A stretch of 64,000 nt of DNA from Azolla caroliniana (Eukaryota; Plantae; Polypodiophyta): the NCBI GenBank assembly GCA_043228905.1, contig JBHGNT010000004.1, forward strand, positions 6,882,001 to 6,946,000, in the 5' to 3' direction. The notes under the pieces are model-generated. The model did no database searches. It saw only the letters and a list, made by a program, of their open reading frames with translations, and had not been told where the DNA came from. Each line of letters opens with the position of its first letter. Position 1 is the first letter of the stretch. Positions 18,691 through 54,954 of this stretch are shown one piece after another. The position numbers were made by a program, and so were the translations under genes.

Positions 18691-18867
<177 letters not shown>

Positions 18868-30563: not shown

Positions 30564-33500
30564 TGTCAGGAACAATACTAAGACAGAGAAGGAATTAGTA
30601 CTAAAAGAAGTATTAGTACTACAAGAGGTGAAGAACTCTCGAGAGAAGGAAAGAGTGAGTGAGAGGGAGGGAGAGAGAGATCGAGAGAGAGAGAGAGAGT
30701 GATGATAAGAAAAGATATATATTATGTGAAGAAAATGTACAGTAGCTAGGAGGCTTAAGACTGGCGTTGAACCGATTTGGTTCGAAATAATGCCTTGTCC
30801 CTCCTTTTATAGTGTTCTAAGGAATACTCCTGAAGTTTTTAGAATGTTCCAGAGAAATCTGGAATATACATCAATTTTCTATAATAAAACATAAAAGAAA
30901 ATAATATTTTACGTATTATAATGTATAGTCTAATGGTCAAGAGCTCGACCCATGTAGCATAAGGTCATGGGTTCGAGTCTTGCCATATCATGACACTATC
31001 CCCCCTTTAAAACGACGAGTGTAACGAGTCGTTTTGGATTGAGGACCCGGTTTGTCTGGATATTGACGATGGAAGTCTTCAAGAAGAGCACGAGCATTAG
31101 TGACATTCTCTATCGGTTCCCAAGTACGCTCGCTGGGACTATATCCTAGCCAATCGACTAGATAGTAGAGCTTGTTGCGAACAAGCTTGGAATCAAGGAT
31201 GGCGGCAACCTCGTACTCAGGTCCATCTTCAAGCTCGATCGGGGGTGGAGGCTGTGTAATACGTCCTGGGATGGTGCTCTCTTGATAGGGTTCAAGGAAA
31301 GAACTATGAAACACCGGATGTATCCGAAGTTGTGGAGGTAGATCAAGACGAAAAGCGACATCATTAATCTTTCCTATAATACGGAAGGGACCTAATCGCC
31401 GATAATCCAACTTCTCGCATGGGCGAGTAGTCTTGATGTGTCGTCGGAGTAGCCATACCCGATCTCCAATGTTAAAACTAGATGGGAGTCGATGACGATC
31501 CGCATAAACCTTGTGTGTTTCTTGAGCTTGTTGGAGATGAGTAGATAAATCCGCTTGTATCTTGCGTAACCTCTCCAAACGATCCTCTGCGCAAGGATTT
31601 GTGGACACCTTTGGGGTTTCAAGTACACACCACCGGGGGTGACATCCTGTATAAGCATAAAATGGTGTAACTTTAGTGGATGCGTGGATAGAGTTGTTAT
31701 AGGCAAATTCGGCGAAGTGGAGAATATCTGCCCAGTCATCCTGATGATAGCTGAGAAAGCACCGCAGATACTGCTCTAGCGTTTGATTAGTTCGTTCGGC
31801 TTGGCCGTCGGTTTGTGGGTGGTAGCCGGAGGAGAGGTTACAAGTGACCTTGAGAATGTTAAAAAGGTGCTTCCAGAATTTTGACACGAACTGGGGTCCA
31901 CGGTCGCTGATGATACTATCGGAAGTCCATGATGCCGACATACTTCACGCATGACAATTTCGGCAGTGTCTTCACTGGAGATCTCCTTAGTACATGGCAA
32001 GAAATGAGCCATCTTCGTATATCGATCGACCACTGTTAGAATCGCATTGAACCCCTTAGAGACTGGAAGATCTGTGATGAAGTCTAGAGCAATGGATTGC
32101 CACGACTTGCTTGGAATTGGTAATGGTTGTAATAAACCATATGGATGATGCCTTGGCATTTTCGCTCTGCAGCATGTATCACACGTCCGAACAAAATCCT
32201 TGACAAATTGTCGCATACAGGGCCACCAGAATGATCGTTGTACTAAATGTAACGTTTTAGTACTACCAAAATGCCCAGCTGTATATGTGTCATGATAGTT
32301 TTGTACTACTTGAAGGCGGCAAGAACCATTAGGAACGTACAAAAGTTCTTTAAAGAAGAGTAATCCATCATGGTATTTGAATTGCTGATAGTCCGTACCT
32401 GGTGGTTGCGACTGTGAACACGACGCTCGAGAGGGATCAATTTGTGCTAGTATAGCTTGGGCGAACGCATCTGTCTTCAAGTCTTCGCGTATGGTATCGA
32501 TAATGCGGGAATCCATGGGCATGTCAAAGATCTGTGTTGCGTGTAGTCGTGCCGGTCCCAAGATGACTTGTTTTTGGTTATCGAAAGTTGGCTCGCCGGG
32601 ACGGGGTGCTAGATACGAACGCCGTGATAATGCATCTGCCTTCCCTTGGTGCTTCCCCAGACGATATGCAATTTTGAAGTCAAAACGCGTGAGGAAGTGG
32701 GCCCATCGAGCTTGACGTCGATTCAACACACGAGCATCCTGAAAGTAGGCAAGGTTCTTGTGGTCACTAAATACGGTGACCGGATGAGAGGATCCCTCCA
32801 GAAAATGCCTCCATTGCATAAAAGAATGCACTATTGCCAATAGCTCCTTATCATGAATTTCATAGTTGATTTCGGCGGCGTCAAACTTGCGTGAGTGAAA
32901 AGCCACAGGATGTAGCTTCTCATCATTCCCCTGTTGTGACAGAATGCTCCCCAATGCAAAATCCGATGCGTCAGCTTCGATAATGAATGATTTTTCCGGA
33001 TCGACATGAGCTAGAATTGGAGCCGATGTAAATGCCTTTTTAAGACTCTCGAAAGCCATGTCCGTTTCTTCAGACCAGATGAACGGTTGTCCCTTCCTGG
33101 TAAGTTGTGTGAGAGGTAGAACGATCTTTGAGTAATCTTGTATGAACTTCCGGTAAAAATTGGCAAAGCCTAGGAAGCATTGCACATCCCGCACCGAACG
33201 CGGAGTCTACCATTCTACCACAGTTTTGACCTTAGCTGGGTCCATGGAGATGCCTTCTGACGAAATGATGTAGCCGAGAAATTCCACTTGGTTGCACCCG
33301 AAACTACATTTTTCCAGCTTTGCATACATACCATGTTCTCGAAGTCATTTTAGTACTAATAGTACATGAGAATCATGTTCTTCTTGGGTCTTTGAATAAA
33401 CCAGTAGATCATCCAAATAGATGATCAAACAATCATCCAATAGATCTCGGAATATATCATTAGCCATGTGCTGGAAGACTGCCGGCGCATTAGTGAGGCC

Positions 33501-35517
33501 GAACGACATGACCATATACTCGAAGTGCCCATATCTGGTGCGAAACGCGGTCTTCCATTCGTCTCCTGGTCGGATCTGTACGAGGTTATATGCTCCCGGT
33601 AAGTCGATCTTCGTGAAGAACCTGACACCATTGATCCGTTCTAAAAGACTTGAGATAAGGGGAAGAGCATACCTATTCCTGATTGTAACCTTATTCAGGC
33701 CACGGTAATCTACAACGAGACGAAGCGATCCATCCTTTTTCTTGATGAAGAAAATGGGCGCGCCGGCTGGAGATTTCGAATGCCGAATGAAACCATTTTC
33801 CAAATTCTCCTCTATATAGGCCCGAAGGACTTCCAGCTCGGTTGGTGACAAATTGTAGATCGGTCCCCATGGCGGCTCTTTTTCCGGTTGTAAATCGATG
33901 GGGCAATCGTACGGTCGATGATGAGGAAGTGTGTTGGCTTGTACTTTATCGAACACATCGGCGTAATGACGATACTTCTAGGGAAGTTGAACGGTGGATT
34001 CTTCTTTAGTGGTGCTGGAGGGGTTTACTGATATTGCAAAGAGGAACATTTCCTCCTTGCGCCCTTCTTTACGCAACTAATGTAGCGAAATGGTTGCCAT
34101 CTTCTGAGTTGACCCTTGGGTTTGTCGACACTGGATTTCTCTTGTTCTCCAATCTTTGTCTGGGTTATGTAACTCGAACCACGACAATCCTAAAACTATG
34201 GGATGTTCTGGGATACTAATAATATTAAATGATACTACACATGCTAAGTTATCTAGGACAATATTAATGGGCTCTGACTCTTCTATGATATTTCCGGAAG
34301 CAATGGGACGTCCATCAATGACTACTAGAGAGGCTGGACATTGGAGTTTTCTTAGGGATATCTTATGAGGTTGAGCAAATTTCTTATCCATAAAGCAAGA
34401 GTTAGCTGCTTTTCTTCTTCGGATAATGGCCCTCGATGACGTGTAGTATCAATCTCCATCGGAGTCGGAGTATTCGCTGGAGGCGCATTATATGACTCCC
34501 TCGGAAAAGGTCTTGCTACCACTAAGGCGTAGGTGGGCTCTGATCTTGCCCTCGGCATCTGTAGCTGTCGTTCCGAACGTCGCTCAAAGAGGTGGTTGTC
34601 ACATCTCACCGCGCGACTGATTGCTTCTGTTAAGGACTTTGGCTCTTCGGGGAAGGTCAAGAGTAAATCCTTGACGTCGTTGCGTAAACCATAACGGAAT
34701 TGCTCCATCAACGCTTGATCATCCCAAGGGATATCGGCGGCGAGTAGACGAAAATCTGCAGCGTATGCGGAGGCTGGACGGTCACCTTAGCGTAATCGCC
34801 GAATTTTGTTGATTGCGGTCCTGATGTTGTCAGTATCTCCAAAACATGCTTTAAACTCACCTAGAAACTCTTCAAAATTGTTGAGTAACGGAGATTCCTT
34901 TTCTAATAGCGGAGCGAACCATGCCAACGCTTAGCCACTTAACAAAGTGCCTACTAAACCCACTCGTGATGCATCGGTGGGATATCGGGAAGGATGCATT
35001 TGAATAACTAATTGTACCTGGTTAAGGAACCCTCTAAATTGCGATCGTGTTCCATCGAACTTCATGGGAAGGCCAATCTTGGGTTCTTTATGAATCCCTT
35101 GTGTTCCGGGCCCTTGTTGTTGCATCGCTACGATGGTTGCTTCGAGTTGTTGCACGCATAACGCAAGTTCCCCATGCTGTTGTTGCGTTTGCTGCTTTTC
35201 TAAGGAGATTTGTTGAAGATCCCCCAGCAACCGTTGGTTTTCTTGTTCCAAAGCATGGAACTTCTCTTTCAAGCATTGAAATTCCGAGAAAACAGATTGA
35301 TATTCTTCAGCGCTAACAGTGGCCATGGGATGAAAGAAAAGAGGAATAAGAGATTAGTGGGAAATGAGAGAGACAGAAGGTAGGGCAAATCGGTTCAAAC
35401 TGTCAGGAACAGTACTAAGACAGAGAAGGAATTAGTACTAAAAGAAGTATTAGTACTACAAGAGGTGAAGAACTCTCGAGAGAAGGAAAGAGTGAGTGAG
35501 AGGGAGGGAGGGAGAGA

Positions 35518-35557
<40 letters not shown>

Positions 35558-35850
35558 TGATAAGAAAAGATATATATTATGTGAAGAAAATGTACAGTAG
35601 CTAGGAGGCTTAAGATTGGCGTTGAACCGATTTGGTTCGAAATAATGCCTTGTCCCTCCTTTTATGGTGTTCTAAGGAATACTCCTGAAGTTTCTAGAAT
35701 GTTCCAGAGAAATCTGGAATATACATCAATTTTATATAATAAAACATAAAAGAAAATAATATTCTACGTATTACAATGTATAGTCAAATGGTCAAGAGCT
35801 CGACCCATGTAGCATAAGGTCATGGGTTCGAGTCTTGCCATATCATGACA
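30564..35850 (-). mobile_element. Chromodomain Gypsy element G (Tcn1-like). LTRs 35401-35850 (5') and 30564-30995 (3'), TSD ATGTG, internally deleted.
   Basis: ATGTG at 30559-30563 and 35851-35855; TG...CA LTRs; PPT aaggggggatag. gag from 35326, RT YLDD, RH, INT, C-terminal chromodomain YEVAAILD...YLVDWLGY...TWEP. Several stops and frameshifts. Confidence 0.95.
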
Positions 35851-36238: not shown

Positions 36239-39200
36239 ACCGATTGGTATCTGCATCATCTGACATGTTTGAATCCGTGAAACTGTCAAGTTGGGGTTTG
36301 CCGGAGCCAAATCGGAGACACATACTTGAGGTGCCTTTCAAGTACCGGGGTATCTATTTTACTACATTCTAGTGCTCATTGCCGAGATTGCTCATAAACC
36401 GGCTCACCACTCTGATTGCATATCCGATATTCGATCGGGTACACATCATTGCGTACATTAAGCTCCCGACGGCAGAGGCATATGGTATCTTCATCATATC
36501 CGCCCTCTCTGCCTTCATCTTCGGGCTTTGCTTACCGGATAACCTGCAATTTGCCGGGAGTGTCGATTCGACCGATTTTGCTTCTGACATGTTGAACCGC
36601 TGAAGCACCTTTGTCACGAACTTCTCTTGTGACAACCACAATTGCTTCTTTGACCGGTCTCGAATGATATGCATCCCCAGTATTTGTCTTGCCGGACCCA
36701 AGTCTTTAATTGAGAAGGTCTAGTTCAAGGCCTTCTTCAGCATCTGTATCTTGACTTGGTCTCGTCCGACGATCAACATGTCGTCCACGTACAGGAGCAA
36801 TATCAGGAATTCTCCTCCATCAAATTTCTTCACAAACACGCAGTGATCGGCCTACGTCTTGTGGTACCGTTTATCGGTCATGAAGGAGTCGAACTTCCGA
36901 TACCATTTCCGGGGAGCCTGCTTCAAATCGTAGAGGCTCTTCTTAAACCAACAAACTAGGTGCTCTTTCCCTTTCTTCACAAATCCCTCCGGTTGCTGCA
37001 TGTAGATCTCCTCTTCGAGGTTGCCGTGGAGGAACGCCGTCTTCACGACTAACTGCTCTACCTCGAGGTCCATGCTTGCCGCTATGCTCAACACCGTCTA
37101 GATGGAAGTCATCTTTACTACCGGGGCAAATATCTCGTCGAAGTCCACACCCTTCTTCTGCTGGAACCCCTTCACCATGATCTTGGCTTTGTATCTCGGG
37201 GGGTTACCGGCATCTCCCAGTTTCAGCTTGTACACCCACTTGTTTCGGAGTGCCCTCTTTCCTTTCAGCAACTCCACCAATTCATACGTGTGGTTCTCAT
37301 GCAGGGAATCCATCTCGTCCTGCATGGCACTCAACCACTTGCGGCTATGGGTGTCATCCCTAGCCTCTTCGAAGCTTTCCGGCTCCCCCTCATCGGTCAG
37401 CAACACATGCTCTGCATCCGGAAATATCCAGGGGGCTCTTCTTTCCCGAAGAGGATATATCCGTCCTCAGTTTTCGATAACCGGCTCCTGCGTCTGTTCT
37501 TCATCCGAATCCGATTCGGGGTCTTGTCCGGTTCCGGTTTCAGCTTCCTCTCCTTCTTCTGCCGATTCGGTATCCTCACTGTATACGGCTGGTTCTTCGA
37601 GTGTCAACCGGCTCTTAGCCGGGTAGGTCCGAATCTCATCGGTCCGATCCTTACCGATCGACTCAGAGTTCATTATCTTCTTCTCCGACTCCCAGTCGGC
37701 AAGGGTCTTGTCCTCCATGAAGATAATATCTCGACTCCGGAACACCGGGGTCCCACACTCGGTAGCCGAACTCATCATCACCATATCCGAGGAATATCCA
37801 AGGCCAGGAGTTTGGATCCAACTTTGCTCTCCGGTCCTTTGCAACATGCACGTAAGCGAGACACCCGAACACCTCTAGATGCTGGTAAGACACTTCCTTA
37901 CCGGTCCACACTCTCTATGGCATGTCTCCGTCCAAGGGTACTGAGGGTGATCTGTTTATCACGTACGTCGATGTCGTCAGTGCCTCAGCCCAAAACGTCT
38001 TGGGTAACTTGGCATGTGCTAGCATACTCCGAACCCTCTCCATTATGGTCTGGTTCATCCTCTTGGCCAACCCATTGAGTTCCGGCGTCTTCGGCACGAT
38101 AAATTCGAGCCGAATTCCCTTCGAGCAACAATACTCCTCGAATTGCCCCTGATATTCTCCTCTGTTATCTACTCGAACCACCTTCAACTTCCGACCGGTT
38201 TCTCTTTCCATTCTCGCGTGGAGCTCCTTGAAGATGGATAACACTTGATCCTTCGTCTTCAATGGTGTGGCCCACAACTTCTGGCTGTGGTCATCTATGA
38301 ACATCACGAAGTACTGTGATCCGGCATGTGACTCACTTGACACACATCGGTATGCACCAGCTCCAGTGGTGCATTACGTCTCATCGGTGGCCTTGATCGG
38401 AAGGAGGTCCGGTTTTGCTTACCAGCCAGGCAGTCGGTGCACCTCTCAAGATGCACGTCCTTCACCGGAATGAGGTTGTCTTCGGCAAGCCTCTTCATCC
38501 CCTTCTCGCTCATGTGACACAATCTCTTGTGCCACAACTCACCGGTAGTGTCAGATGCCACGTTCATGTCTTCCCGGCATAACCGGGCATTCATTAGATA
38601 CAACGTGTTGACTTTCCGGGCCCGAGCCATTATTAGGCTCCCTTTGCAGAACTTCATGACACCATTCTGGATGCTACGCATGTAGCCTTCATCATCTAGC
38701 CGACCGGCTGATATCAGGTTTAGTCGAACCTCCAGAATGTGTCGGACATCCTTCAACAACAGCTTGCATTTGGTTGATGTTGTCAACAACACATCTCCTA
38801 TGCCGACAATTCGGCATGTCCCTTCATTCCCCATCCGAACACAACCGTGCTCACTGCTTGTGTAGGATGAGAAGCATTTCCGGTCCGGGGTAAGGTGGAA
38901 TGACGCTCCGGAATCGACAATCCATGTTGTCTCGTCGCCGGCAAGGTTCAACTCACTCTCCTCGGTGATGAGCATCAACTCTTCTTCACTTGTTGCGATC
39001 GCCGTCGTTCCCTTCCGGTTCGGGCCTCGCCGATCTGAACCGTTTCGGTCCGACGACTTCTTCGAATCGGTATTGTTGGTTCCCTTGTCTTTCCGGAAAT
39101 GCCGACAGTTCTTCCGGAAGTGCCCCGGCTTGCCGCAATAGAAGCAAGTAGGCCTTCCCCTTGACTTTGACCGTGTCCCCGACTTTTCCCGGTTTTGGGG

Positions 39201-40439
39201 ACTCCGGTTCCTTTGTCTTCTGCGTTCCGATTTGGTAAGGAGCGCTTTGGAGTCGGAGATTGTATCCTTGTCTTTCTGACGCGCCTCCTCATCTAGCAAG
39301 CTCGACTTGACTCTTGCTAGGGATAGCTGTTTTACTTCCGGCCCGGCGTTGCCCAACGTGATAACTAATGTCTCCCAGCTATCCGGGAGGGAACCGAGCA
39401 AGAGTAGTGCTAGTACCTCATCGGCGAGAGGTACTTCCGATGAGGTTGCCTGATGTATTAGCCCTTGGAAGGCATTCGCGCGCTCCACCATACTGGAGCC
39501 GTCTTGGTACCGGAGCCTCACTAGCTCCTGAAATACCGAAACCCGATTAACAACATTTTTGTTCTAAAACATAATGCCGATCTTCTCCCAGAGTTCATGA
39601 GCCTTGCTCTCTTCATTGAAGTTGTTGTACAGGATCATGTTGATGAAACACCGTATGTACGCCGTTGTCTTCATGTGCATCACCTCCCATATCGTGGCAT
39701 TGATCTTGTCCGGTCTCATGTCCCCGAATTGAACCTGCAACCAGAGATCTTTGATCACGAGCATGTCCCTCATCTTCGACTTCCACACTGAGTAGTTGGA
39801 GCCAGTGAGCTTGAACATGCCTCCCAACGAATCTTCCATTTTTCTGTGTCGTTTCGCTCTGATACCAGATTGGCAGGAATATGCGGAATAATCTTTGGCA
39901 ACAACCGAGACTTAGATCACTTAATGATAATCAAACACAGAAGAAATGAGAAATGGAAGTAAGTACACAAACAGAAGAGAATGCACAGGATGTTAACGTG
40001 GAAACCCTAAATGGGAAAAACCACGGGAGTCCACAGACTTCGAACTATCACTATGTTAAGGAGAATACAACAAGGGAACATAGAGGCAACGACCTCGTGC
40101 TTACAATCTTCGCCTGGAGATGGTTACAGTAGAGACTCACTCTGTCTCTCTCTGTCTCTGTCTCTCTTTCCCTCTGCTACGCTCTGTACAACAGTTGCAC
40201 CAAAATAACACTATACAAAATAATGACCACACAATGATACACACATGCCCTAGGTCATATTTATACTAATATGACTTTAGGACTATTTAAAGATATATCC
40301 CCAATGGGCTCTCAGAAACATATTTCCATATATGTCCCTTAATTCGGTGAGAGGTTCTCACCGGGCCTTCATCATCCCATCCGGAGGGATTGAGATCCTA
40401 ACACAATGTGTACATTCCCAGGATTTGCTTTGCCGAACC

Positions 40440-43400
40440 TGTAGAAAGTAGCGTGCGGAAGCAAGTATGAAGACCGAACAGAAGAGAGGAAACTCAGGTT
40501 CAATGCAGAGCTTGAGCTTACACGGTATACGCAGGAGAGACAGAGAGAGAGAAACACAAAAACTATATTCAACAATAATACTCAATCTGTACATAAGACG
40601 TGCTTCAGTGAACACTTTTATACAAGTCCTAGAAGGACTGACCGAAGTACTGACAGTACTTCAATGCTCATTAAGAGCTCCTACACTAACTCCCAAATAT
40701 ATTCCTCACGGAATATCTTTCCTAACGGCATCCCGGTTTACGCACTTGGCCTAACCGATCGGTCCCAACCGATCCGGTCCTCGGCTTCTTCAGCCGATCC
40801 AGCCGATGTTGAGGTTGTCTCTCAACACTCCCCCTCAAGCTCAACTCGAGGCTCTTCGGGATCCTCGGACTCACAGCTCCGGTTCCTCCTGGCTTCACGC
40901 CTCGCTCGCGCTCCTCGACCTGTTCGACTCCGCGCGCTTCGACCCTTCCGGTCGGCTTGTCTGCTCATGCGGCCCTTATAAGCTCTTCTGCTGTTGCGGT
41001 GTTGACGCTTCTCCTGCTGCCTTTTCTTCCACTTGGGCCTCGGTTGATTCACCGTGTCTGAGTCAAACATCCGAACCGATTCGGCTACCTCTGATCGGTT
41101 TTCGCTCTCGTCCGAGTTGGCTGTCTCCAACTCGTCTTCGGTCTTCTCGCCCTCGATGGCATCATCTCCCCCATGCGTGGTTGGCTTCGGCTCTCTCCTT
41201 CGGCTGCTCCCCTTCTGTCCGCTTCCGGACTTCTCCGCGGGTCCGCCCTCGGCTTCTTCAGCCGATCCGAAGTCGAACTCAACAACCGAGTCAACTGACT
41301 CGGTGGTGTCGCGGTCTCCGCTCCTTTCCTGCTGCCTTGCTTGGTCGTTCGGGACTGTTCTCCCCCTCAAGCTCGGCACATCGAGGTGACGCAACCCGAG
41401 CGCACCTGAGAATTGCCGCAACTTGTCCAGACCAAGAGGCTTTGTGAAGATGTCGGCAGTCTGCCGATCCGTCGGCATGTACTGAAGTTCGACTTCACCG
41501 GAAAGGGCACGCTCACGGACGAAATGGTAATGCACCTCAATGTGCTTGGTCCGTGCGTGAAAAACGGGGTTCTTCGCGAGCTGGGTGCTGCTGAGGTTGT
41601 CGTAGTAGATCGTCGTCGGATCTGACACCTCCTCTTGCAGGTCCTTAAGTAGCCGCTTCAACCATATGGCTTCGCATGTCGCGATAGATGCTCCTTGGTA
41701 CTCAGCTTCGGTGCTCGACAGGGCAACTGTCGGCTGCTTCTTACTGCTCCACGCGATCGCGACACTCCCGAGGGAGAACGCGTATCCAGACGTGGATCGG
41801 CGATCGGCGATCGGCGGCATTGCCAGCCCAATTAGCATCGGTGTAGCCGACTAACCGCGCGGCTGCACCGGTCCGATATAGGAATCCCCAGTCCTTAGTG
41901 CCGTTGACATACCGAAGTATGCGTTGCACACACTTAAGGTGCTCCTCGGTAGGTCGCGCCATGAACTGACTGATCACCCCGACCGGATAACTGAGGTCGG
42001 GTCGGGTGATGGTCAAGTATATGAGGCTTCCGACAATTTGTCGGAACCTCGTCGGGTCGCATACCTTTCCCGTATCGGGACGAAGCTTGACGGTTCTGTC
42101 TAGAGGAGTCGAGACGGACTTACAGGCTGCCATCCCGAATTTGAAGAGCATACTCAGCACGTAATGACGTTGGCTGATCAATATGCCTTTAGAGGTACGG
42201 ATCACTTCGATCCCGAGGAAGTAATGAAGGTCCCCCGGATCCTTCATGTCGAACGATGCCGCAAGCTGGAGCTTCACGCGGTTGATTTCACCTAGGTCGG
42301 CGCCGGTGATGACCAAGTCATCAACATACAGTAAAATACTAACCGGTCCGAGTCGACCTTTCCGGATGAACAGGGAAGAGTCCGATTTTGACGTGACGAA
42401 GCCCAACCGATGCAGTTGTTGCGTGATCTTCGCGTTCCAGGCACGCGGGGCTTGCTTCAGTCCATAAAGGGACTTCTTCAGTCGGCATACTGCCGAGGAG
42501 TTTGTTCCGGAGTGAAATCCGGGGGCTGTACCATGTACACCTGTTCCTCAAGGTCACCTTGCAGGAACGCATTCTTTACATCCATCTGATGTAAGTGCCA
42601 CCCCTTGGCCGCGGCTACTGCGAGCAAAACACGGACGGTCGTCATTTTCGCGACCGGCGCAAACGTCTCATCATAGTCGATGCCGTGTTTCTGCACATAG
42701 CCCTTTGCCACTAGCCGAGCCTTGTACCGGTTGACCGAGCCATCGGTGTTGTGCTTGACTTTGTACACCCATCTACACCCGATCGGCTTCACACCCTTCG
42801 GTGCGTCAACCAGGTCCTAGGTCTCGTTCTCCGCCAATGCGTGCATCTCTTCCTCCATCGCGGCACGCCAATTCGCGTCTTTAGCCGCTTCTGCGTAGCT
42901 CTCCGGCTCACGCACTTCCGCTACACGGGTCATGTACGCATAATGATGCGCCATGTACTCGTTGTATCCGAACCGCAAAACAGGATTCTTCTGGCGGGTA
43001 GATCGGCGTAATCTCACATTAGCCAATGTCGAGGCCTTCTCGGTCGACGCGGTCTTCACCTTTAAAGACCCGTCACCGGTTCCCTCGGAGTCGGACTTGC
43101 GTCGGTCTGACTTGTTCCTTTTCGTGCCGGAATGCAACACCTTCTTCTTCCCTTTCTCTTTGCGCGTAAGCCGTCTCCTCGGCTTCCTGCGCGGGGAATG
43201 CACGGCCGAGTCTCCACTACTCTCCGACACTTCATCGGACTGGTCGTACCGACTCAGTCGTGCAATCGGTCCACTTAACTGCAGTGAAATCGGACTCTCT
43301 TCGCGAGTCTCGATTTCGGGCTCATCCGGAGGCATCTCGGCCTCGCTGACCTCATCGTTAGAGCTCGGATTGGAGTCGAGGTTTGTAGTCGGGGGCAGGT

Positions 43401-46046
43401 ACCAGGACGCGGACTTGTCAAACACAACGTTGCGGCTAACACGCGCTTGTTTGGTGCTAGGGTTATAGCACTTATAACCCTTCTGCTCGTCCGAGTAACC
43501 GACCAAGATGCACTTCTTGGCCTTTGCGTCCAGCTTCCTCCTTTTCTCCTTCGGTATATGCACATACGCAATGCTACCGAACACCCTCAAGTGTTGCAAG
43601 TTCGGCTTCGTTCTGAAATATAGCTCGTGCGCCGACACTTTGTCTCCAATCCGGTTCTGGATGTATACCGCGGTCCTTACCGCCTCGGCCCAATAGAACT
43701 TGGGCAAGCTCTTCTCCTCTAGCATTGCCCGTGCCGCTTCCACAACTGACCGATTCTTCCTCTCGGCCACACCGTTCTGTTCTGGCGTGTATCTACAACT
43801 GAATTCGCGCCGAATTCCCATTTGTTGTAGATAACCGTTGAATTGACCGGAAAAGTACTCTTTCCCGCCATCCGACCGCAGGCACTTGATGTTTCGTCCA
43901 ATTTCGGCTTCCACGAACCCTTTGAGGTCCCGGAAACAATCGAAGACTTCGCTCTTCCTCTCAATGAGGTAGATCCACGTGTGTCGTGTGTGGTCGTCGA
44001 TGAAGGAGACGAAATATCGGCTCCCGCCAAGACTAACGTTTTGTGCTGGCCCCCATACATCAGAGTGTATAAGGTCGAGCTTGTTCCGGCTCCGGTTTCG
44101 CTCGTTGGGGAAGGGAAGTCGGTGTTGCTTCCCGAGCTAGCAGGCTTCACAAATTTGTGCTTTTCGGCCACTAAATTTGGGCAATCCGAACACTACCTGT
44201 TTCGTTTGCAGGTCTTGAAGCCGCTGGTAATTGACGTGGCCTATCCGCTTATGCCACAAGTCGATGTCCGACTCGGTTTTTCTTCCCTTTGCGAACATTG
44301 CGGTGCCGCCGTCAGTGGAGTCGAGGATGAACATCCTCCCGTCTCTGCGCCCTTGCGCAATCACACGGCCTTCTTCCTCAATGAAGCACCCGAGGTGTGT
44401 AAACCGAACCTCCATCCCTTGGTCGACGATCTGTCCGACCGAGACCAAGTTCTTTGTGATTGTCAGAACGTGCAACACGTTCATGAGTTTCCCTTTCTGC
44501 CCGACATGGCTAAGGGGAACTTCTCTGACATTTGCGATCGGATGCAGAGTGTCGTCTCCAGTTGCGACTACTCCAGGTTGTATCGGTTTTTCAAGGTATG
44601 AGAACCACTCCTTATGGCTTGTCATGTGGTTTGACGCGCCGGAGTCTACGTACCACACCTCGTCCAATCTCGGGGTGCTTTGTTTCATTGAGTTTTCTTC
44701 GTGTCTCGTCACAAAGATAGACCCTTCTCCAGCTCTCCCGGAGTCTTTGGCGTAGTGCGATCCCGGAGTCTTCGTGGCCTTTCTTGCCACAGTACCAACA
44801 CTCCGCGATGGCCTTCCCTTGCCGGTTCTCATCGCTTCGACTCCCCCTGTTTCCGGAGGGTCCGAAGTTGCTGTCGGCATCACTTCGGTGCCTTCTTCCT
44901 TGATCTCGTCGGCCGCATCCATTGCGCGCCGACTCGCCTCGTCCACCACGTCCACGGGGCCTATCTCCCTCCGTGTACAGCATTTTGCTGTCAGTGTGCG
45001 TGCTTGTAGACGCACCCGCGTGGTTCTCATCTACCAGGAGCATTGACTGTAAGTCAAAAAAGGACGACGTATTCTCCCGGGTACACACAGCCGTTCGGAA
45101 CGCTCCGAACTTCGACGCCAAACCTCCGAGACAGATCTGGACCATCTCGCTCTCCTCGATGTTCACGTCTATGGAGGCGAGGGAGTTGCAGATATCCTTG
45201 ATCTTCGAGGTATAGTTCGCCACCGACAAGTCGCGTTGTCGTAGGTTGCTCAACTCCTGTCGGAGCTGAAGCTTCCTAGCTGTGGTGCTCGCGGCGAAAA
45301 TCTTCTTCAGATTTTCCCACGCACCCTTCGGCGTCTTTGCATCCCGAATATAGCTCAATAGCTGTTCGTCCACACACGACGCAAAGCAGTATAATACCCT
45401 GCTCGCCGATTGCTCCCATGACAGGAAGTCTCTGTGTGTCGATTCGGGTGCCGCGTCATTAGCTCCTTCGACATAACTCCAGTAGCCGTGCCCGAGCAGG
45501 TACTGGTGCATCTTGTAGGACCAAGACGCGTAGTTGGTTCTGTCGAGCTTCTCTGTTGGAAGCGAGCTCACCATGTCTCTATCCATCGTTCTTCTTATTC
45601 TTCTTCGTCAAGCTGTGTTGGCTGCAGAGAGGTTCTCAACCCTCACGCTCTGATACCATGTAGAAAGTAGCGTGCGGAAGCAAGTATGAAGACCGAACAG
45701 AAGAGAGGAAACTCAGGTTCAATGGAGAGCTTGAGCTTACACGGTATACACAGGAGAGACAGAGAGAGAGAAACACAAAAACTATATTCAACAATAATAC
45801 TCAATCTGTACATAAGACGTGCTTCAGTGAACACTTTTATACAAGTCCTAGAAGGACTGACCGAAGTACTGATAGTACTTCAATGCTCATTAAGAGCTCC
45901 TACACTAACTCCCAAATATATTCCTCACGGAATATCTTTCCTAACGGCATCCCGGTTTACGCACTCGGCCTAACCGATCGGTCCCAACCGATCCGGTCCT
46001 TGGCTTCTTCAGCTGATCCAGCCGATGTTGAGCTTGTCTCTCAACA
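40440..46046 (-). mobile_element. Copia element C (Ale-like). 388-bp LTRs 45659-46046 (5') and 40440-40827 (3'), TSD GAACC.
   Basis: GAACC at 40435-40439 and 46047-46051. iMet PBS abuts the LTR (45646-45658); PPT gagcttgagggggag 40828-40842. gag from 45586, WYVDSGASNHMT, INT, RT YVDD, RH. Seven LTR mismatches counted. Confidence 0.95.
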
Positions 46047-46103
46047 GAACCCATATCCTTCATCGCGAAGGACTTGCTCATGGCCTTCTTCAAGCTTTCG
46101 ATT

Positions 46104-46274
46104 TGTTGGGAAACTAGTCCGGATTAGAACCGGACAAGCCAGATTGGACGAAACAAACTGGATGGATCCAGAAGGTACCTTGACATTCATATTTGTAAAT
46201 AACCCCAAAGTTATATATGTATAAATAGAACTAGGGAACACTACTAAAAATGAGTAGTTGTGGTTATGTGTGTT

Positions 46275-46310
<36 letters not shown>

Positions 46311-48066
46311 CATTTTTTGTTGTAACCGTCGTTCACAAAGATAGAGCTCGAGGTCATTCCCTCAGAGTCTCACACTGTAATATCTCTCCTCATAGTGGTT
46401 CAGTTTAGAGTCTACGAACTCCCATGGTTTTGCCTCCTTGAGGGTTTCCATGTAAAAATCTTGTGTTGTTTCGTTTGACTGTGTAAGTGCATTCATCATT
46501 ATATCCGATTTCTGTTTCTTTCATAGAGTGATTGAGACTCGGTTGTGGTCGAGCACTATTTCTATCAAATTAGTATCATAACGATTTGGTTTCAAGCCTA
46601 AATAGAAAATGGAAGATTCATTCGACGACATGTTCAAGCTCACCGGCTCCAACTACTCAGTGTGGAAGTCAGAGATGAGAGACATGCTGGTGGTAAAAGA
46701 TCTTTGGCTGCCGGTATAGTTTAGAGATGCAAAACCGGACAAAATAGATGTGTCAACCTCGGAGGTGATGCACATGAAGATGACAACCTACATTCGATGC
46801 TTCATCGACATGAGCCTGTATAACAACTTCAATGAGGAGAAGAAATCCCACGAGCTCTGGGAGAAGATATGCATCATGTTTGAGAACAAGAATGTTGTGA
46901 ATCGAGCCTCGGTCTTTCGAAAGTTAGTGAGACTAAGATATCAAGATGGCTCCAACATGGCGGATCATATGAATGCCTTCCAGGGCTTATAAATCAGACA
47001 ACCTCGCTAGAGGTACCTCTAGCTGACGAGGTACTCGCCTTGTTGCTTCTCGGTTCCCTCCCGGATAGCTGGGAGACGTTGATTGTCACGCTGGGCAATG
47101 CCGGGCCGGAAGGTAAACACCTATCCCTAGCGAGAGTAAAATCAAGCTTGCTAAATGAAGAGGCTCATCAGAAAGACAAGGAGGTGATCTCCGTCTCAAA
47201 AGTGGGTGGTCAACTTCAGAGCGTCATTCCATCTTACACCCGACCGGAAGTACTTCGCATCCTACAGAGCCAAGGATCACGACTGTGTAAGGATGGGAAA
47301 TGAAGGTGCATGCCGAATTGTCGGCATAGGAGACATATGGCTGACGACGTCAACCGGGTGCAAATTGTTTCTGAAAGACGTTTGACAAGTTCCGGAAGTT
47401 CGGTTGAACCTGATATTAGCCGGTTATCTGGATGATGAATGCTACATGGGTAGCATCCGAAAACGGAGTCATGAAGTTAAGCAAAGGAAGCCTGATCGTA
47501 GCTCGAGCCCGGAAGATCAACACACTATACCTGATGCATGCCTAGATTGGTCGGGAAGACGTAAATGTGGCAGCGGATACTGTTGGTGAGATGTGGCACA
47601 AGAGGTTGTGCCACATGAGTCAGAAAGGGATGCAATGGCTTGCTGAAGATAACCTCATTCCGGAGGTGAAGGACGTGCATCTTGAGAAGTGCACCTACTG
47701 TTTGGCCGGAAAACAGAATGAAACCTCTTTCCGGTCAAGGCCACCAACAAGTCGGAAAGAACCACTGGAGCTCGTGCATACCGATGTATGCCAAGTGGAC
47801 ACGAAGTCACATGTTGGGTCGCAGTACTTCGTGATGTTCATAGATGACCACAATTGGAAGTTGTGGGTCTCACCGCTGAAGACAAAGGATCAAGTACTGA
47901 CCATCTTCAAGGAGTTCCACATGAGAGTGGAAAGAGAAACAGACCGGAAGCTGAAGGCAATTTGAGTCGACAACGGTGGAGAGTACCAGGGGTAGTTTGA
48001 GGAATACTGCAGGTCAAAAGGAATCCAACACGAATTTACCATGACGAAGACGCCAGAGTTGAACAA
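46104..48066 (+). mobile_element. Copia element D (same family as B), 5' LTR about 46104-46567 plus decayed gag-PR-INT, 3'-truncated
   Basis: TGTTGGG start, degenerate PBS tagtatcataacg, gag MEDSFDDMFKLTGSNYSVWKS at 46609, WHKRLCHMS and ELVHTDVC. Breaks off after TPELN. Confidence 0.85.
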
Positions 48067-48918
48067 TGTCACGGTTTTCGTGATTATGTGTCGAAATGGG
48101 GCGGGACCACCAGGGACCCGGACCAAGGAGCCGGTGTGAGATGTTTTCGTGACACTAATCCTATGGGTCCTCATCATCTTTTGCTGCATAAGATCTTCTA
48201 TATTCATCATTTGGTATCAGAGTGACCTTGTTGTCGAACGACAACAAATAGCAAGAGAGAAACTATCTGGCTAAAAGAAAAGATCAGGTCGGTAGAAATT
48301 TCTTTTCTAGAAGATGGCATCACAATTTGGCATAAGTGTAGAAATCTAGAAGTTCGATGGAAAGAACTTTGTCCTCTAGAAAGAAATGATGTGCGATGTC
48401 TTAATCATCCGGTGGCAAGTGTCATGGCAAGACTCGAACCCATGACTTTATGCTACATGGGTCGAGCTCTTACCATTAGATTAGGAATTGTATTTTGTAG
48501 GATATTATTTTCATTTATACTTTATCATAGAAAATTGATGTATATTCCAGATCTCTCTGGAACATTCTAGAAGCTTCAAGATTATTCCTAAAAACACTAT
48601 AAAAGGAGGCACAAGGCATTGTTTTGAACCAAATTGGTTCAACGCCAGTCTTAAGCCTCTTAACCGCTTGTACTTATCTTTTCACATAATATATAGTTGT
48701 TGTCATCATCTCTCTCATTCTCGCTATCTCTCTCTCTCTCCTCTTCTCACTTCCTCTCTCGGGAATCTTATGCAGTCCCGTCCTCTTAGTACTAATAGTA
48801 CTGCTGTTCATAGTACTAATTCCATCTCTGTTTTAGTACTATTCCTGACAGTTTGAACCAATTTCTCCTCTAGCCTACTTGTCACTCTCCCTCATCCTCC
48901 TACCCTTTTCCCTATACT

Positions 48919-50076
48919 ATGGCTACTGTTAGCGCCCAAGAATACCAATCCGTTTTCTCTGAGCTACAGTGCCTAAAAGAAAAGTTTGTTGCCCTGGAAC
49001 AAGAAAACCAACGGCTGATAGGGGATCTGCAACAAATCGCTCTAGAAAAACAACAAACGCAACAACAACATGGGGAGTTAGCGTTACGGGTACAACAACT
49101 CGAAGCAGCGTTGCAACAACAAGGATCCAGTCCCCAAGGGTTTCATAAAGAGCCCAAGATTGGACTTCCTGTGAAATTTGATGGAACGCGTTCGCAATTC
49201 CGGGGATTCCTTAATCAGGTACGCTTAGTCATCCAGATGCATCCTTCCCGATATCCCACTGATGCATCTCGAGTCGGCCTAATAGGCACGCTACTTAGCG
49301 GCTCAGCCTTGGCATGGTTTGCTCCGCTTCTAGAAAAACAATCACCCTTACTTAATAACTTTGAAGATTTTATTGGTGAGTTTAAAGCCTGCTTTGGAGA
49401 CACCGACAGCATCAGGACGGCGATCAACAAGATCCGGCGATTGCGTCAAGGCGATCGTCCAGCCTCTGCCTACGCGGCGGATTTCCGCCTACTTGCTTCA
49501 GATATACCCTGGGATGATCAAGCACTAATGGAGCAGTTTCGCTATGGCTTGCGAAACGATGTCAAAGATCTACTTCTAACTTTCCCCGAAGAACCAAAGT
49601 CTCTTACGGAGGCAATCAGTCAGGCAGTTCGATGTGACAACCGCCTTTTTGAACGGCGTTCAGAACGTCAATTACAGATACCACGCTCTAGGCCAGAGCC
49701 CACTTACGCCGCAGTCGCGGCTAAACCGTTTGCACGAGACACACCTCAAGCAAATACTTCGACACCGATGGAGATCGATACCATGCGTCGACGCGGCCCG
49801 TTATCGGAAGAAGAAAAGCAACGACGACGTGCCAATCGATTATGTCTTTATTGCGGTGGACCAGGACATATCGCCATCAATTGTCCCCATAGGCCAAGAA
49901 GACAGGTAAATCAAATCGTCGCCTGTACTAAACCTGAGTCAATTCTTCCCTTTGGAGTGTCTGATAGTATTAATAGTACTAATAGAGTGTCAGATAGTAT
50001 TCATAGTACTAATAGCCCAAGTATCTCAAATAAATTTGAAATCCTTAGTCAATTAGATGAAGAGTTAAACGATTGA
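48919..50076 (+). CDS. gag: Gag of element F (coiled coil, capsid, CCHC knuckle)
   Basis: 385-aa intact ORF with [19 protein letters not shown] and [14 protein letters not shown]. Confidence 0.93.
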
Positions 50077-53000
50077 GTCCAGCCAAAATAGGAGCCATTT
50101 GGTTGGACAGCAGCCCTAGATCTGTACAGCCCATTAGTGGTTCCATTCCTTCCAAGCAAGTTAGCAATGTGTTCCTAGCCCAAGTCATTGTTAGTACTAA
50201 AAGTACTCCCCCAGTACCCGTCCTAGCACTTTTAGATTCCGGAGCTAATTCCTGTTTTATGGATCGAAATTTTGCCCAAGCTTCTCAGATATCCTTAAGA
50301 AAACTTCCTTGTCCCGCATCTGTAGTGGTCATTGATGGTCGTCCCATTGCTTCCGGGAATATTGTAGAAGAATCAGAACCCATTCAAGTTGTCCTAGGTA
50401 GTTTTGTGTGTATAATATCATTTAATATAATTAGTAGTCCAGAGCATCCCATTGTCCTAGGATTACCTTGGCTTGAATTACATAATCCAGCCATAGATTG
50501 GAGAACAAGAGAAGTCCGATATCGACCACCCCAAGAAACAACTCACCGAGTTTCGACCATTTCACTCCATCAACTACGCGAAGAAGGACCCAAGGAGGCA
50601 ATGTTCCTATTTGCCATATCAGTACATCCTTCTAGCACTATTAAGGACTCCTCAATACAACTTCCGGCAAAATATCATCCTTATGCCGATGTATTTGACA
50701 AGGTAAAAGCCGGTACCCTTCCTCATCACCGTCCCTATGACTGTCCCATCGATTTACAACCAGGAACCGAGCCACCATGGGGACCAATTTACAACTTGTC
50801 ACCCACAGAGTTAGAAGTCCTTCGAGCCTACATAGAGGAGAACTTGGCAAGCGGGTTCATCCGTCATTCGAAATCTCCGGCCGGTGCACCCATCTTCTTT
50901 GTCAAGAAGAAAGATGGCTCACTTCGTCTTGTCGTTGATTACCGCGGATTGAATAAAGTCACCATCCGGAATAGGTATGCACTTCCTCTTATATCAAGTC
51001 TTTTAGAGCGAGTTAATGGTGCCAAGTTTTTTACTAAAATCGACCTACGAGGAGCGTATAATCTCGTGCGGATCCGACCGGGAGATGAGTGGAAGACCGC
51101 TTTTCGCACGCGGTATGGGCATTTCGAGTATACTGTTATGCCGTTTGGCCTAACCAATGCACCCGCAGTCTTCCAACACATGGCAAATGATATATTCAGA
51201 GACCTCTTGGATATCTGTTTGATCATTTATCTGGATGATCTGTTGATTTATTCGAAGACCTAGGAAGAGCACGATTCTCATGTACTATTAGTACTAAAGC
51301 GACTCCGCGAGAATGGTCTTTATGCCAAGCTAGAGAAATGTAGCTTTGACTGCAAGCAAGTGGAATTTCTAGGCTACGTCATCTCCTCAAAGGGCATCGC
51401 CATGGATCCAGCTAAAATCCAAACTGTACTAGAGTGGCAAATTCCACGGTCGGTACGAGATGTACAATGTTTTCTAGGCTTTGCTAACTTCTACCGTAAG
51501 TTTATACAGGATTACTCGAAGATTATTTTACCTCTCACACAACTTACGAAGAAGGGCCAAGCATTTCTTTGGTCCATCGAAGCAGATATGGCTTTTCGGC
51601 ATCTTAAGAAAGCCTTTACATCAGCACCGATTCTAGCTCATGTGGATACAAGCAAACCATTCATCATGGAGGCCGACGCATCAGATTTCGCCCTCGGTAG
51701 CATCCTTTCTCAACAAGGCGATAAAGAAGAGTTGCATCCGGTGGCTTTCCATTCACGCAAATTCAATGTCGCAGAAATCAACTACGAAATACATGACAAG
51801 GAGTTATTAGCCATCGTGGATTCATTTGTACAATGGCGGCATTTCTTAGAGGGCTCTCCACATCAGGTCATTGTCTTTAGCGATCATAAAAATCTTGCTT
51901 ATTTTCAGAACGCTCGCGTACTAAATCGACGGCAAGCTCGGTGGGCGCAATTCCTCACGTGTTTCAACTTCGAAATCACATATCGACCGGGGAAGCAGCA
52001 AGGAAAAGCAGATGCACTATCACGGCGTTCATATCTTGCACCTCGTCCTGGTGACGCAACATTTGATAATCAAAAGCAAGTAATCTTGGGACCAACACGA
52101 TTGCACACGACGCGGATTTTTCACACCCCGATGGATTCACGGATTACCGATGACATACGTGCAACCTTGAAGACGGATAGTTTTGCTCAAGACATCCTGG
52201 CGCACATTGATCCTTCTCGGGCATCCTGTTCTCAGTCTCAACAACCAGGTATTGACTACCGACAATTCGAATATCATGATGGTTTGTTATTCTTTAAAAA
52301 GCGCGTATATGTCCCCGATTGCTCCGGTCGCCTTCAAATCGTCCAACATTGTCACGACACCCATACGGCGGGACATTTCGGTAGTACCAAGACGTTGGAG
52401 TTAGTGCATCGATCTTTTTGGTGGCCCCACATGCGCCGTTTTGTCGACGACTATGTTCGGACCTGTGATGCTTGCTGCCGAGCAAAGATGCCACGACACC
52501 ATCCATATGGCTTGTTGGAACCTTTACCAATTCCAAGTAAGCCATGGCAGTCTATTTGTCTTGATTTTATTACAGATCTGCCGGTCTTGAAGGGGTTCGA
52601 TGCTATCCTAACCGTCGTCGATCGATATACGAAGATGGCACATTTTGTGCCATGTACTAAAGCCATCACTAGCGAGGAAACCACCGCTCTTGTTATGCGT
52701 GAGGTATTTCGGCATCATGGCCTACCAGACAGTATTATCAGTGACCGAGGCCCGCAATTTGTCTCCAAATTTTGGCAGCATCTCTTTAGGATGCTCAAGG
52801 TCTCCTGCAACCTCTCCTCCGGCTACCATCCTCAAACTGACGGACAGGCGGAACGAACAAATCAAACGTTGGAGCAATATCTCCGGTGTTTCCTGAGTTA
52901 TCAACAGGACGATTGGGCCAAGATTCTCCACTTTGCGGAGTTTGCGTATAATAATGCTATTCACTCCTCGACTCGGGTCTCCCCATTTCTCGCTTATACC

Positions 53001-53642
53001 GGTTTCCATCCTCGCTGGTCGGTGATCGACACTCCGGAGCTACCTACCAACCCTCGTGCCGAGGACCATTTGGAGAGGCTACGCAAGATCCAGATGGATC
53101 TCTCTACTCACCTTCGTCATGCTCAACGCACACAGAAGACTTATGCGGATCGTCATCGGATTCCCTCCTCTTTTGCCATCGGAGATCGAGTATGGCTCTT
53201 ACGCCGTCACATCAAGACTACTCGACCGTGCGACAAGTTGGATTATCGACGACTCGGTCCTTTCCGTATTACGGGGAAGATTAATGATGTCACCTTCCGC
53301 TTGGATCTCCCTCCGCAGCTTCAGATACATCCGGTTTTCCATTGTTCTCTTCTTGAACCTTATAAAGCAAACACCATTCCCGATCGTGTGACACCACCGC
53401 CGCCCCCGCTGGAGTTGGACGACGGCCCGGAGTATGAAGTTGCTGCCATCCTCGATTCCAAACTTGTTCGCAACAAACTTTATTACTTGGTCGATTGGCT
53501 CGGTTATAGTCCGAGCGAACGTACTTGGGAACCCGTCGAGAATGTTGCCAATGCACAAGATCTTCTTGCTGATTTCCACCGAAAGTATCCGGACAAACCC
53601 GGTCCGCAGTTAGCGCCGACTCGTTCCACTCGTCGTCTTTAA
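50064..53642 (+). pseudogene. pol: Pol of element F in the -1 frame (PR, RT, RH, INT, chromodomain) with one premature stop
   Basis: [33 protein letters not shown], chromodomain. Single TAG at 51261-51263 where copy G encodes Gln ([10 protein letters not shown]). Confidence 0.92.
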
Positions 53643-54954
53643 GGGGGAGATAGTGTCATGGCAAGACTCGAACCCATGACTTTATGCTACATGGGTCGAG
53701 CTCTTACCATTAGATTAGGAATTGTATTTTGTAGGATATTATTTTCATTTATACTTTATCATAGAAAATTGATGTATATTCCAGATCTCTCTGGAACATT
53801 CTAGAAGCTTCAAGATTATTCCTAAAAACACTATAAAAGGAGGCACAAGGCATTGTTTTGAACCAAATTGGTTCAACGCCAGTCTTAAGCCTCTTAGCCG
53901 CTTGTACTTATCTTTTCACATAATATATAGTTGTTGTCATCATCTCTCTCATTCTCGCTATCTCTCTCTCTCTCCTCTTCTCACTTCCTCTCTCGGGAAT
54001 CTTACGCAGTCCCGTCCTCTTAGTACTAATAGTACTGCTGTTCATAGTACTAATTCCATCTCTGTTTTAGTACTATTCCTGACAGCATGTCGAAGCAATC
54101 CAGCACAACTGCCGACCAACTTTGATTTCTACAGAAGAATTGTGATCGATGGACGAAATAGCATGATCAACCATCCAGATGCACTTGGTCGAGAACATCT
54201 ATTTTAGCATAGCAAAGGAGATGTCAACATTCTCATTGTGGGAGAAGTTACATGCCATATCTCATTGCGGGAGAAGTTACAAGCCATATACGAGAAGAAA
54301 TCCTCCTCGTTGAAACTCATATTGATCTTACAATTATTCAATATGAAGATGAGAGAGTCGGATCCGGCAACCTCCCACATCAACACCTTCATCCGGGTGT
54401 TCTCCGAACTCTCCTCCCAAGGGATTAACTTTGAAGAAGAAGTTAAGGACATTGTCCTCCTTTCGAGCTTGCTGGCGAGTTGGGAAGACTTCTATATGAT
54501 GTTTGCCACCAGCTATTTGAATCTCAATTTGGACGAAACAGTAGGAAAAATCCTATCAGAAGACATCCAATTACAATCGATGGGTCTCACCATCGACGAT
54601 TCGGTAGAAGCTCACCACTCGATTGAGCCAGCCAAAAGAATCGACCGAAGAGGAGGGACGATCGACAAAGATCGAAATCAAAGAATGGTCGGTCGAGTGC
54701 CTTTTGCACATATTGCAAAAAGGTTGGCCACAACATTTCCAACTGTTGTTGGATAAAAAGAAAGGAGAATGGTCAACGATTCAATCAGACTCAAGGAAAA
54801 TCCAATTCGATCCGTTCTTTGACTGGCAACCAAGTCAATGTTTTTGAATCACGGTCTGGAGAAGTCCTCTCCTTTGAAAACTCTTCGACCAGTGAAGTCC
54901 TACACAATGCGAAAGACGTGGGAACGTGGCTGCTTGACTCCAGCACCATATTTC

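What the first reader, a model, noticed from the sequence alone, without database searches (positions are those of the whole stretch)
48598..48864. tRNA-independent self-priming signal in a plant chromovirus, with a compensatory base change between two copies
Seen: neither F nor G has a TGG-type tRNA PBS. In F the 12-mer TTGAACCAATTT (48853-48864, 2 nt after the 5' LTR) is the exact complement of AAATTGGTTCAA (48631-48642), which starts 33 nt after the first T of TATAAAA (48598), at the expected transcription start. In G (minus strand) both partners differ together: PBS TTGAACCGATTT (35398-35387) and R start AAATCGGTTCAA (35633-35622), with the same 33-nt TATA spacing in its 3' LTR. An A:T pair has become G:C and the duplex is preserved. 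Known: S. pombe Tf1 primes reverse transcription with its own first 11 nt after RNase H cleavage. Inference: this family uses the Tf1 mechanism in a land plant.
Basis: partly seen in the sequence, partly recalled or inferred. Interest (0 to 1): 0.85.

Follow-up and report, generated by a model that had tools for sequence, protein, structure and literature searches.

The report
Self-priming Tcn1 retrotransposon, probable fern
Two jumping genes, probably in a fern genome, carry a 12-base site that pairs with the predicted start of their own RNA, and relatives keep the pairing through matching changes, so they likely prime their own copying without a tRNA, a trick proven in yeast and already predicted in print for this group of plant elements.

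Summary
Observation confirmed at the stated coordinates. F and G are Tcn1-like chromoviruses (RT 119 of 145 residues identical to Selaginella SM-Tcn1, by eye); a neighbouring host kinase points to a fern. In 34 elements with both anchors (F, G, 32 of 78 loci), 26 pair 12/12, 8 of 12 positions change on both sides, pairing stops at both ends, and 15 of 17 possible changes are shared on a Gag tree (null mean 1.7, maximum 8). SM-Tcn1 itself carries the same signal, which its describers missed. The F/G change alone is weak: both are CpG-type transitions. No transcription start or cleavage could be shown, and Tf1-type flanking stems were not found. The inference is not new: Neumann 2019 (PMC6317226) predicted self-priming for 83% of 1500 plant Tcn1 elements, and this scan noted it before in moss genomes. 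Added here: covariation support and a probable fern host. New member of a known kind; interest 0.25.

The parts
48420..48850 (+). Element F, 5' LTR (431 bp, TG..CA)
   Evidence: 429 of 431 identical to the 3' LTR
48598..48604 (+). F TATA box (TATAAAA), 33 nt before the 12-mer
   Evidence: spacing 31-33 nt in 31 of 34 elements, 38 in 2, not measurable in 1
48624..48642 (+). F inverted repeat across the predicted U3/R border: the 12-mer is its right arm; not general in the family
   Evidence: z below -1.5 in 4 of 21
48631..48642 (+). F predicted self-primer, first 12 nt of the predicted RNA (AAATTGGTTCAA), preceded by C
48643..48650 (+). Conserved motif after the primer (C-R-C-C-A-G-T-C); C13 is unpaired with the spacer and marks the inferred cleavage site
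   Evidence: also in SM-Tcn1 by eye; partly circular because it served as a search anchor
48851..48852 (+). 2-nt spacer (GT) between the LTR end CA and the PBS
   Evidence: GA in L068, L073, L075; AT in L050
48853..48864 (+). F primer-binding site (TTGAACCAATTT), no TGG
48919..50076 (+). F gag ORF (Retrotrans_gag, Ty3 capsid, weak CCHC)
50061..53642 (+). F pol (PR-RT-RNase H-IN-chromodomain), overlapping gag in the -1 frame; in-frame stop in RT at 51261-51263
53641..53650 (+). F polypurine tract
53654..54084 (+). F 3' LTR, with the second copy of the 12-mer at 53865-53876
35401..35850 (-). Element G, 5' LTR (450 bp)
   Evidence: 422 of 432 aligned bases identical to the 3' LTR
35622..35633 (-). 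G predicted self-primer (AAATCGGTTCAA)
35387..35398 (-). G primer-binding site (TTGAACCGATTT)
30564..30995 (-). G 3' LTR, TATAAAA at 30811-30805, 12-mer at 30778-30767

Best explanation
F and G are Tcn1-like Ty3/gypsy chromoviruses, probably in a fern, whose primer-binding site is the exact complement of a 12-base stretch of their own LTR, and they likely start reverse transcription with their own RNA as Tf1 does. Shown: the complementarity, its fixed place 2 nt after the LTR and about 32 nt after TATA, and its covariation in relatives. Predicted: the RNA starts at the A of a C|A step (48631), and its first 12 nt (10-11 in two more distant subfamilies) fold onto the PBS. Inferred from Tf1: RNase H cuts after the invariant UCAA, leaving a 3'-OH; RT then copies the 2-nt spacer, U5 and R; the spacer would be the dinucleotide that integrase trims. 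Inferred: if the primer is copied into the plus strand, the PBS is re-templated from the LTR each cycle, which would itself produce the matching changes, with G.U pairs as tolerated intermediates.
For: Exact 12-bp match in F and G; it closes the minimum-energy fold of both 5' regions, z -4.3 and -6.7. Of 34 elements, 26 pair 12/12; each position pairs in 32-34 of 34, against 0 of 34 at positions 13-15 in register and 1 and 3 of 34 at -2 and -1. 98.1% of 360 cells pair, 8 of 12 pairs change on both sides, 0 of 500 shuffles reach the score, slid registers give 9-64%; RNAalifold finds the helix unaided. On a Gag tree, 15 of 17 possible changes are shared without L062/L065 (20 of 23 with them), against 23 of 82 for wrong-partner columns and a null mean of 1.7, maximum 8 in 100000; 5 shared changes are transversions (8 with L062/L065), which CpG decay cannot give. 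G.U intermediates in L004, L005, L060 and L002. Three more loci (L068, L073, L075) show an 11-bp version with different letters, 32 nt after TATA as counted in L075 (by eye); L008, L010, L016 pair 12/12. SM-Tcn1 pairs 12/12 (395-406 with 499-510, 33 nt after TATA, by eye). Self-priming predicted for 83% of 1500 plant Tcn1 elements.
Against: No transcription start or cleavage is shown; the four runs laid are contigs only. The two flanking stems that Tf1 needs were not found as covarying helices (own partner -7.2 versus foreign partner -7.0 kcal/mol, 6332 of 20000 permutations as good; leader stem z below -1.5 in 2 of 21). Imperfect cases: L032, L061, L076 among the 34, and L039 (10 WC, 1 G.U, 1 mismatch) and L040 (9 WC, 1 G.U, 2 mismatches) outside them. 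30 of the 32 loci come from one series of assembly accessions and are probably collapsed from many copies, so they are not independent hosts and the two sites may be unphased. Anchors were chosen. Host tRNAs could not be searched (no genome). F has a stop in RT, so this copy probably cannot move unaided.
Confidence: 0.88

Rival explanations
1. The duplex is real and selected but serves another step (RNA circularisation, packaging, dimerisation or translational control), or priming uses the identical copy in the 3' R region rather than the 5' end.
For: Covariation shows pairing, not priming. The 3' LTR copy is equally complementary. One contig of a run guessed to be RNA joins U3 plus the 12-mer to the minus strand of U5 across the 12-nt match and includes 71 nt upstream of the predicted start (X3, depth 3.5). 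Tf1-type flanking stems were not found.
Against: There is no other primer site; the duplex ends exactly 2 nt after the LTR end and begins at a C|A step about 32 nt after TATA in 10-, 11- and 12-bp variants, as a 5'-end primer requires. The X3 contig is single and is equally explained by library fold-back or template switching.
Confidence: 0.07
2. A host tRNA half or fragment primes at this PBS, and the LTR match is secondary.
For: Several 12-mers resemble the tRNA T-loop consensus GGTTCRA / GTTCGAATC (motif recalled, from no call). Half-tRNA priming exists in plant copia lineages (PMC6317226). Host tRNAs were not searched.
Against: The PBS begins TTG, so no CCA-ended tRNA fits. Eleven different PBS sequences occur among the 34 elements, most matched by their own LTR; a tRNA primer gives no reason for the LTR to follow. 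No Rfam match in 48400-49000.
Confidence: 0.03
3. The match is a chance or relic inverted repeat and the F/G difference is parallel CpG decay.
For: The F/G change is a CpG-type transition on both sides; L060 looks the same.
Against: Shared transversions, tree-aware excess, 0 of 1054 pseudo-PBS controls, and the same layout in SM-Tcn1.
Confidence: 0.01

Closest known systems
Plant Tcn1-clade chromoviruses (REXdb, Neumann 2019 PMC6317226; SM-Tcn1 of Selaginella moellendorffii, Novikova 2010 PMC2864245)
   Same: RT 119 of 145 and chromodomain 26 of 34 residues identical to SM-Tcn1 (by eye); overlapping gag/pol, 5-bp TSD, size, group I chromodomain; same layout GACA-GT-TTGA(N8) and (N8)TCAA-CACCAG, same 33-nt TATA spacing; self-priming already predicted for 83% of 1500 elements.
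   Different: Host is probably a fern, whereas both papers report plant Tcn1 only from mosses and lycophytes (PCR on 26 ferns and horsetails found none). Neumann's call rests on a 10-nt complement alone, with no covariation test in the passages I read; Novikova found no primer signal in SM-Tcn1.
Tf1/Tf2 of Schizosaccharomyces pombe and the Tf1/sushi group (Tj1, Tosmo, Cryptococcus Tcn1)
   Same: PBS complementary to the (here predicted) 5' end of the element's own RNA; no tRNA site; Ty3/gypsy with chromodomain integrase.
   Different: 12-nt (10-12) primer against 11 nt in Tf1; the three-duplex 'pretzel' was not detected as covarying helices, only a possible 2-bp extension and a 3-bp GUC/GAC stem; nothing here is shown by experiment.
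TAR lineage of plant Ty1/copia (Houba, Osr-1)
   Same: Predicted self-priming in plants (89% of 203).
   Different: Different superfamily and domain order.

Membership tests
Tcn1 clade of chromoviruses | RT/RH/INT closest to Tcn1 references | tested here: met
   119 of 145 RT residues identical to SM-Tcn1, ungapped, counted by eye; the two best named hits with near-full coverage are fungal (chytrid element 53% over 95%); Atlas top three clusters mostly Basidiomycota
Tcn1 clade of chromoviruses | Placement inside Tcn1 on a tree with reference clades (Tekay, Reina, Galadriel, CRM, Chlamyvir) | not tested
   No reference proteins were available as tool sequences; the REXdb fasta supplement was too large to read
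Tcn1 clade of chromoviruses | Group I chromodomain with aromatic cage and chromo box | tested here: met
   PF00385 E 7.7e-14; Y, W, Y cage positions and YLVDW box present (definition)
Tcn1 clade of chromoviruses | gag and pol in overlapping frames; 5-bp TSD; 5.5-9.4 kb | tested here: met
   F gag ends 50076, pol frame opens 50061; TSD exact in G, 4 of 5 in F; F 5665 bp, G 5287 bp, slightly under the published range
Self-priming elements, sequence criterion of Neumann 2019 | At least 10 nt starting 0-5 nt after the 5' LTR complementary to the 5' LTR; no TGG tRNA site | tested here: met
   12 nt starting 2 nt after the LTR in F and G (criterion)
Tf1-type self-priming | The complement lies at the 5' end of the transcript | tested here: inconclusive
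   TATA spacing 31-33 nt in 31 of 34 and C|A at the 12-mer start in 30 of 34 fit, but only contigs were available
Tf1-type self-priming | RNase H cleavage releases the primer, which starts minus-strand DNA | not testable with these tools
   Needs biochemistry or cDNA end mapping; RNase H domain present
Tf1 three-duplex 'pretzel' subtype | Two further stems flanking the PBS, formed with LTR sequence downstream of the primer | tested here: not met
   No own-partner preference or excess over shuffles in 21 representatives; the test is energy-based with fixed windows and could miss short or shifting stems. Not filed under this subtype
tRNA-primed plant chromoviruses (Tekay, Reina, Galadriel, CRM) | PBS starting TGG, complementary to a tRNA 3' end | tested here: not met
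   PBS starts TTG in 34 of 34

The most novel reading that the evidence does not exclude
A young, diverse Tcn1 radiation lives in ferns, a group where the papers I read did not find it, and it self-primes with a stripped-down signal: a 10-12 bp duplex ending in an invariant UCAA, a bulged C and a conserved CRCCAG motif, shared from a lycophyte to a fern, without the flanking stems that Tf1 needs. The PBS is re-templated from the primer each cycle, so primer and PBS drift together through G.U intermediates.
Probability: 0.3. Interest if true: 0.45.

Novelty: new member of a known kind. Interest (0 to 1): 0.25.

Why it matters
It turns a published prediction (self-priming in plant Tcn1, based on a 10-nt match) into a claim with tree-aware covariation behind it, shows that the signal is present in SM-Tcn1 where it was reported absent, and probably extends Tcn1 to ferns, which bears on the proposed fungus-to-plant transfer. 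It also names the likely start and cut sites for a direct test. It does not reveal a new mechanism.

Tried and rejected
No whole genome is held, so no copy census or host tRNA search; ARAGORN finds no tRNA in the window. RNA: no RNA holder listed; the four runs laid are contigs, with no start sites; this says nothing on expression. Flanking stems: not supported; own R segment beat an upstream control window in 20 of 21, but shuffles do as well, so I put that down to composition. A U3/R hairpin that might mask the 3' copy of the primer is strong in F and L068 but not general (4 of 21). A direction of change (LTR first, PBS after) fits L002, L004, L005 but not L032 or L061, so no claim is made. 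Rfam: no match. Dropped rows: of 78 loci, 14 were not examined because the match began too far into Gag or at the contig edge, 16 had no PBS anchor and 16 no R anchor in the same LTR; one search then rescanned all 44 and searches recovered three with a GA spacer. Literature on Tcn1 in ferns: three searches listed no paper reporting it, and PMC6786969 has no 'Tcn1' in its main text; genome-paper supplements and subscription journals were not seen and may hold it. [quoted passage not shown]

Full report
Observation. Every coordinate holds. In F, 48853-48864 is the exact reverse complement of 48631-48642, and TATAAAA begins 33 nt upstream at 48598. F's LTRs are 48420-48850 and 53654-54084, 429 of 431 identical, so the PBS starts after a 2-nt GT spacer. 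In G (minus strand; LTRs 35850-35401 and 30995-30564) the pair is 35633-35622 and 35398-35387; the 3' LTR has TATAAAA 33 nt before its 12-mer and the 5' LTR has CATAAAA there. An exact 12-nt complement somewhere in the F LTR has a chance of about 4e-5, or 3e-4 with six offsets, and 0 of 1054 shifted pseudo-PBS windows reach 10 nt. A copia element in the window has an ordinary TGG-type PBS. The duplex closes the predicted fold of both 5' regions (z -4.3 and -6.7). One caution: the F/G difference is a CpG-type transition on both sides, so that pair alone is weak evidence.

What the elements are. F encodes Gag, protease, RT, RNase H, integrase and a chromodomain; three G fragments scanned give RT, RNase H, integrase zinc finger and chromodomain. 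Gag and pol overlap in the -1 frame, and F's RT has an in-frame stop at 51261-51263. Compared by eye with the SM-Tcn1 record in the supplement of PMC2864245, F shares 119 of 145 RT residues and 26 of 34 chromodomain residues, with the group I aromatic cage (definition in PMC3350952, passages). TSD, size and ORF layout match the Tcn1 row of PMC6317226 Additional file 5, except that G is slightly short and F's TSD has one mismatch. Named protein hits are few and mostly fungal. No tree with reference clades was built. The host is probably a fern: a PB1-RAF kinase gene in the window scores highest against Adiantum and Ceratopteris proteins (796 and 778 bits, against at most 652 for the non-fern named proteins among the 26 tried). 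This rests on one gene.

Covariation. An alignment of 55 Gag proteins fetched 78 metagenome loci. I anchored on the LTR end and on TATA plus the motif after the 12-mer, neither of which includes the duplex letters, though both were chosen after the unanchored scan. Of 64 loci examined, 32 had both anchors, 16 no PBS anchor and 16 no R anchor; 14 were not examined at this step. Among the 34 elements with F and G, 26 pair 12 of 12; three have one G.U; L032, L061 and L076 have mismatches; L062 and L065 have a 10-bp duplex. Each position pairs in 32-34 of 34; positions 13-15 in register pair in 0 of 34. In 21 clusters at 85% identity, 16 of 21 own pairs are perfect against 61 of 420 foreign pairs, and 0 of 100000 permutations reach the observed sum. 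The pair counter gives 98.1% paired cells, 8 of 12 pairs changed on both sides, and 0 of 500 shuffles on score; RNAalifold predicts the same helix. On a tree of the first 600 nt of gag, 15 of 17 possible changes are shared without L062/L065, against 23 of 82 for wrong-partner columns and a simulated mean of 1.7 (maximum 8); five of them are transversions. A rescan of the other 44 loci added perfect pairs in L008, L010 and L016, a G.U in L002, and two degenerate copies, L039 and L040. L068, L073 and L075 have an 11-bp duplex with different letters and a GA spacer. SM-Tcn1 pairs 12 of 12 with the same spacing. Limits: 30 of the 32 loci share one accession series, and contigs are probably collapsed from many copies.

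How it most likely works. The RNA is predicted to start at the A of a C|A step 31-33 nt after TATA (C|A in 30 of 34, spacing in 31 of 34); in the 10- and 11-bp variants the duplex also starts at C|A. The first 12 nt pair with the PBS. By analogy with Tf1, whose first 11 bases are cut off by RNase H and used as primer (PMC7175516, passage), the cut would fall after the invariant UCAA, before an unpaired C. RT would copy the 2-nt spacer, U5 and R; the spacer would be what integrase trims (general retroelement knowledge). If the primer stays on the DNA, as the title of Atwood-Moore 2006 says for Tf1 (reference list only), the plus strand copies it and the PBS follows the LTR without needing two separate mutations; this is inference. 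Tf1 needs two more stems (bioRxiv 10.1101/2022.12.06.519325, passages). I did not find them as covarying helices; there is only a possible 2-bp extension past the bulged C and a 3-bp GUC/GAC stem with one compensating change, and both overlap my anchors.

RNA evidence. No RNA holder was listed and all four runs laid are contigs, so no start could be mapped. One contig in X3 switches strand across the 12-nt match; it includes U3 upstream of the predicted start and may be a fold-back artefact. It is a weak hint that the two sites anneal, nothing more.

Prior art. PMC6317226 (passages, methods passage and Additional file 5) says most plant Tcn1 elements lack tRNA sites and are predicted to self-prime (83% of 1500) and uses this as support for transfer from fungi. 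PMC7175516 (passages) reports the same proposal for Cryptococcus Tcn1. PMC2864245 (passages, section 7, supplement) found no self-priming signal in SM-Tcn1 and no Tcn1 clones in 26 ferns and horsetails. PMC4600332 (passages) covers Tj1. PMC8282616, PMC6911290, PMC6786969 and PMC11042837 were read as term passages only and added nothing. Searches for Tcn1 in ferns and for plant self-priming listed no paper with a fern Tcn1 report or a covariation test; unseen supplements and subscription papers may hold either. Earlier notes of this scan report the same signal in moss genomes; my reading was fixed before I saw them.

Verdict. Real feature, well supported as a selected or re-templated RNA duplex, most likely Tf1-type self-priming (0.88). 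The mechanism is known and already predicted for this clade; the additions are covariation evidence, the signal in SM-Tcn1, and a probable fern host. New member of a known kind; interest 0.25.

Noticed in passing
run X3 laid on window 48560-48630 / 48864-48781: One 201-nt contig (depth 3.5, run guessed to be RNA) switches strand across the 12-nt match, giving the sequence of primer extended on the PBS but with 71 nt of U3 in front; not listed for X1 or X2. Fold-back artefact or a real by-product; unresolved.
   Followed up: partly
SM-Tcn1 record, PMC2864245 supplement, 395-406 and 499-510: The published Selaginella element has a perfect 12-nt self-primer/PBS match 33 nt after its TATA, although the paper says no evidence of self-priming was found.
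   Followed up: yes
window 17488-22653 (-): PB1-domain RAF-like kinase gene; best named relatives are fern proteins (Adiantum, Ceratopteris), the basis for the host guess.
   Followed up: partly
window 40440-45999 (approx., -): Copia element with near-identical LTRs and a TGG-type PBS (TGGTATCAGAGC) next to 45659; useful internal control.
   Followed up: partly
window 28684-47800: Nested retrotransposon cluster: repeats on both sides of G and copia domains nearby suggest G and the copia element sit inside older copia copies; nesting order not worked out.
   Followed up: no
window 48785-48845 and 35460-35405: U5 of the F/G subfamily holds several copies of the palindrome AGTACT that fold into local hairpins; largely absent from more distant subfamilies.
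   Followed up: no
L062 and L065, 5' region: More distant elements (53-54% Gag identity) with a 10-bp duplex, longer TATA spacing (38-40 nt) and, in L062, a strong leader/U5 stem (z -3.8) like one arm of the Tf1 pretzel; host unknown.
   Followed up: partly
window 50064-50070: GTTAAAC just before the gag stop, inside the gag/pol overlap; possible -1 frameshift site, not tested.
   Followed up: no
window 7309-8493 (-): ORF with a zf-RVT domain, probably a LINE remnant.
   Followed up: no
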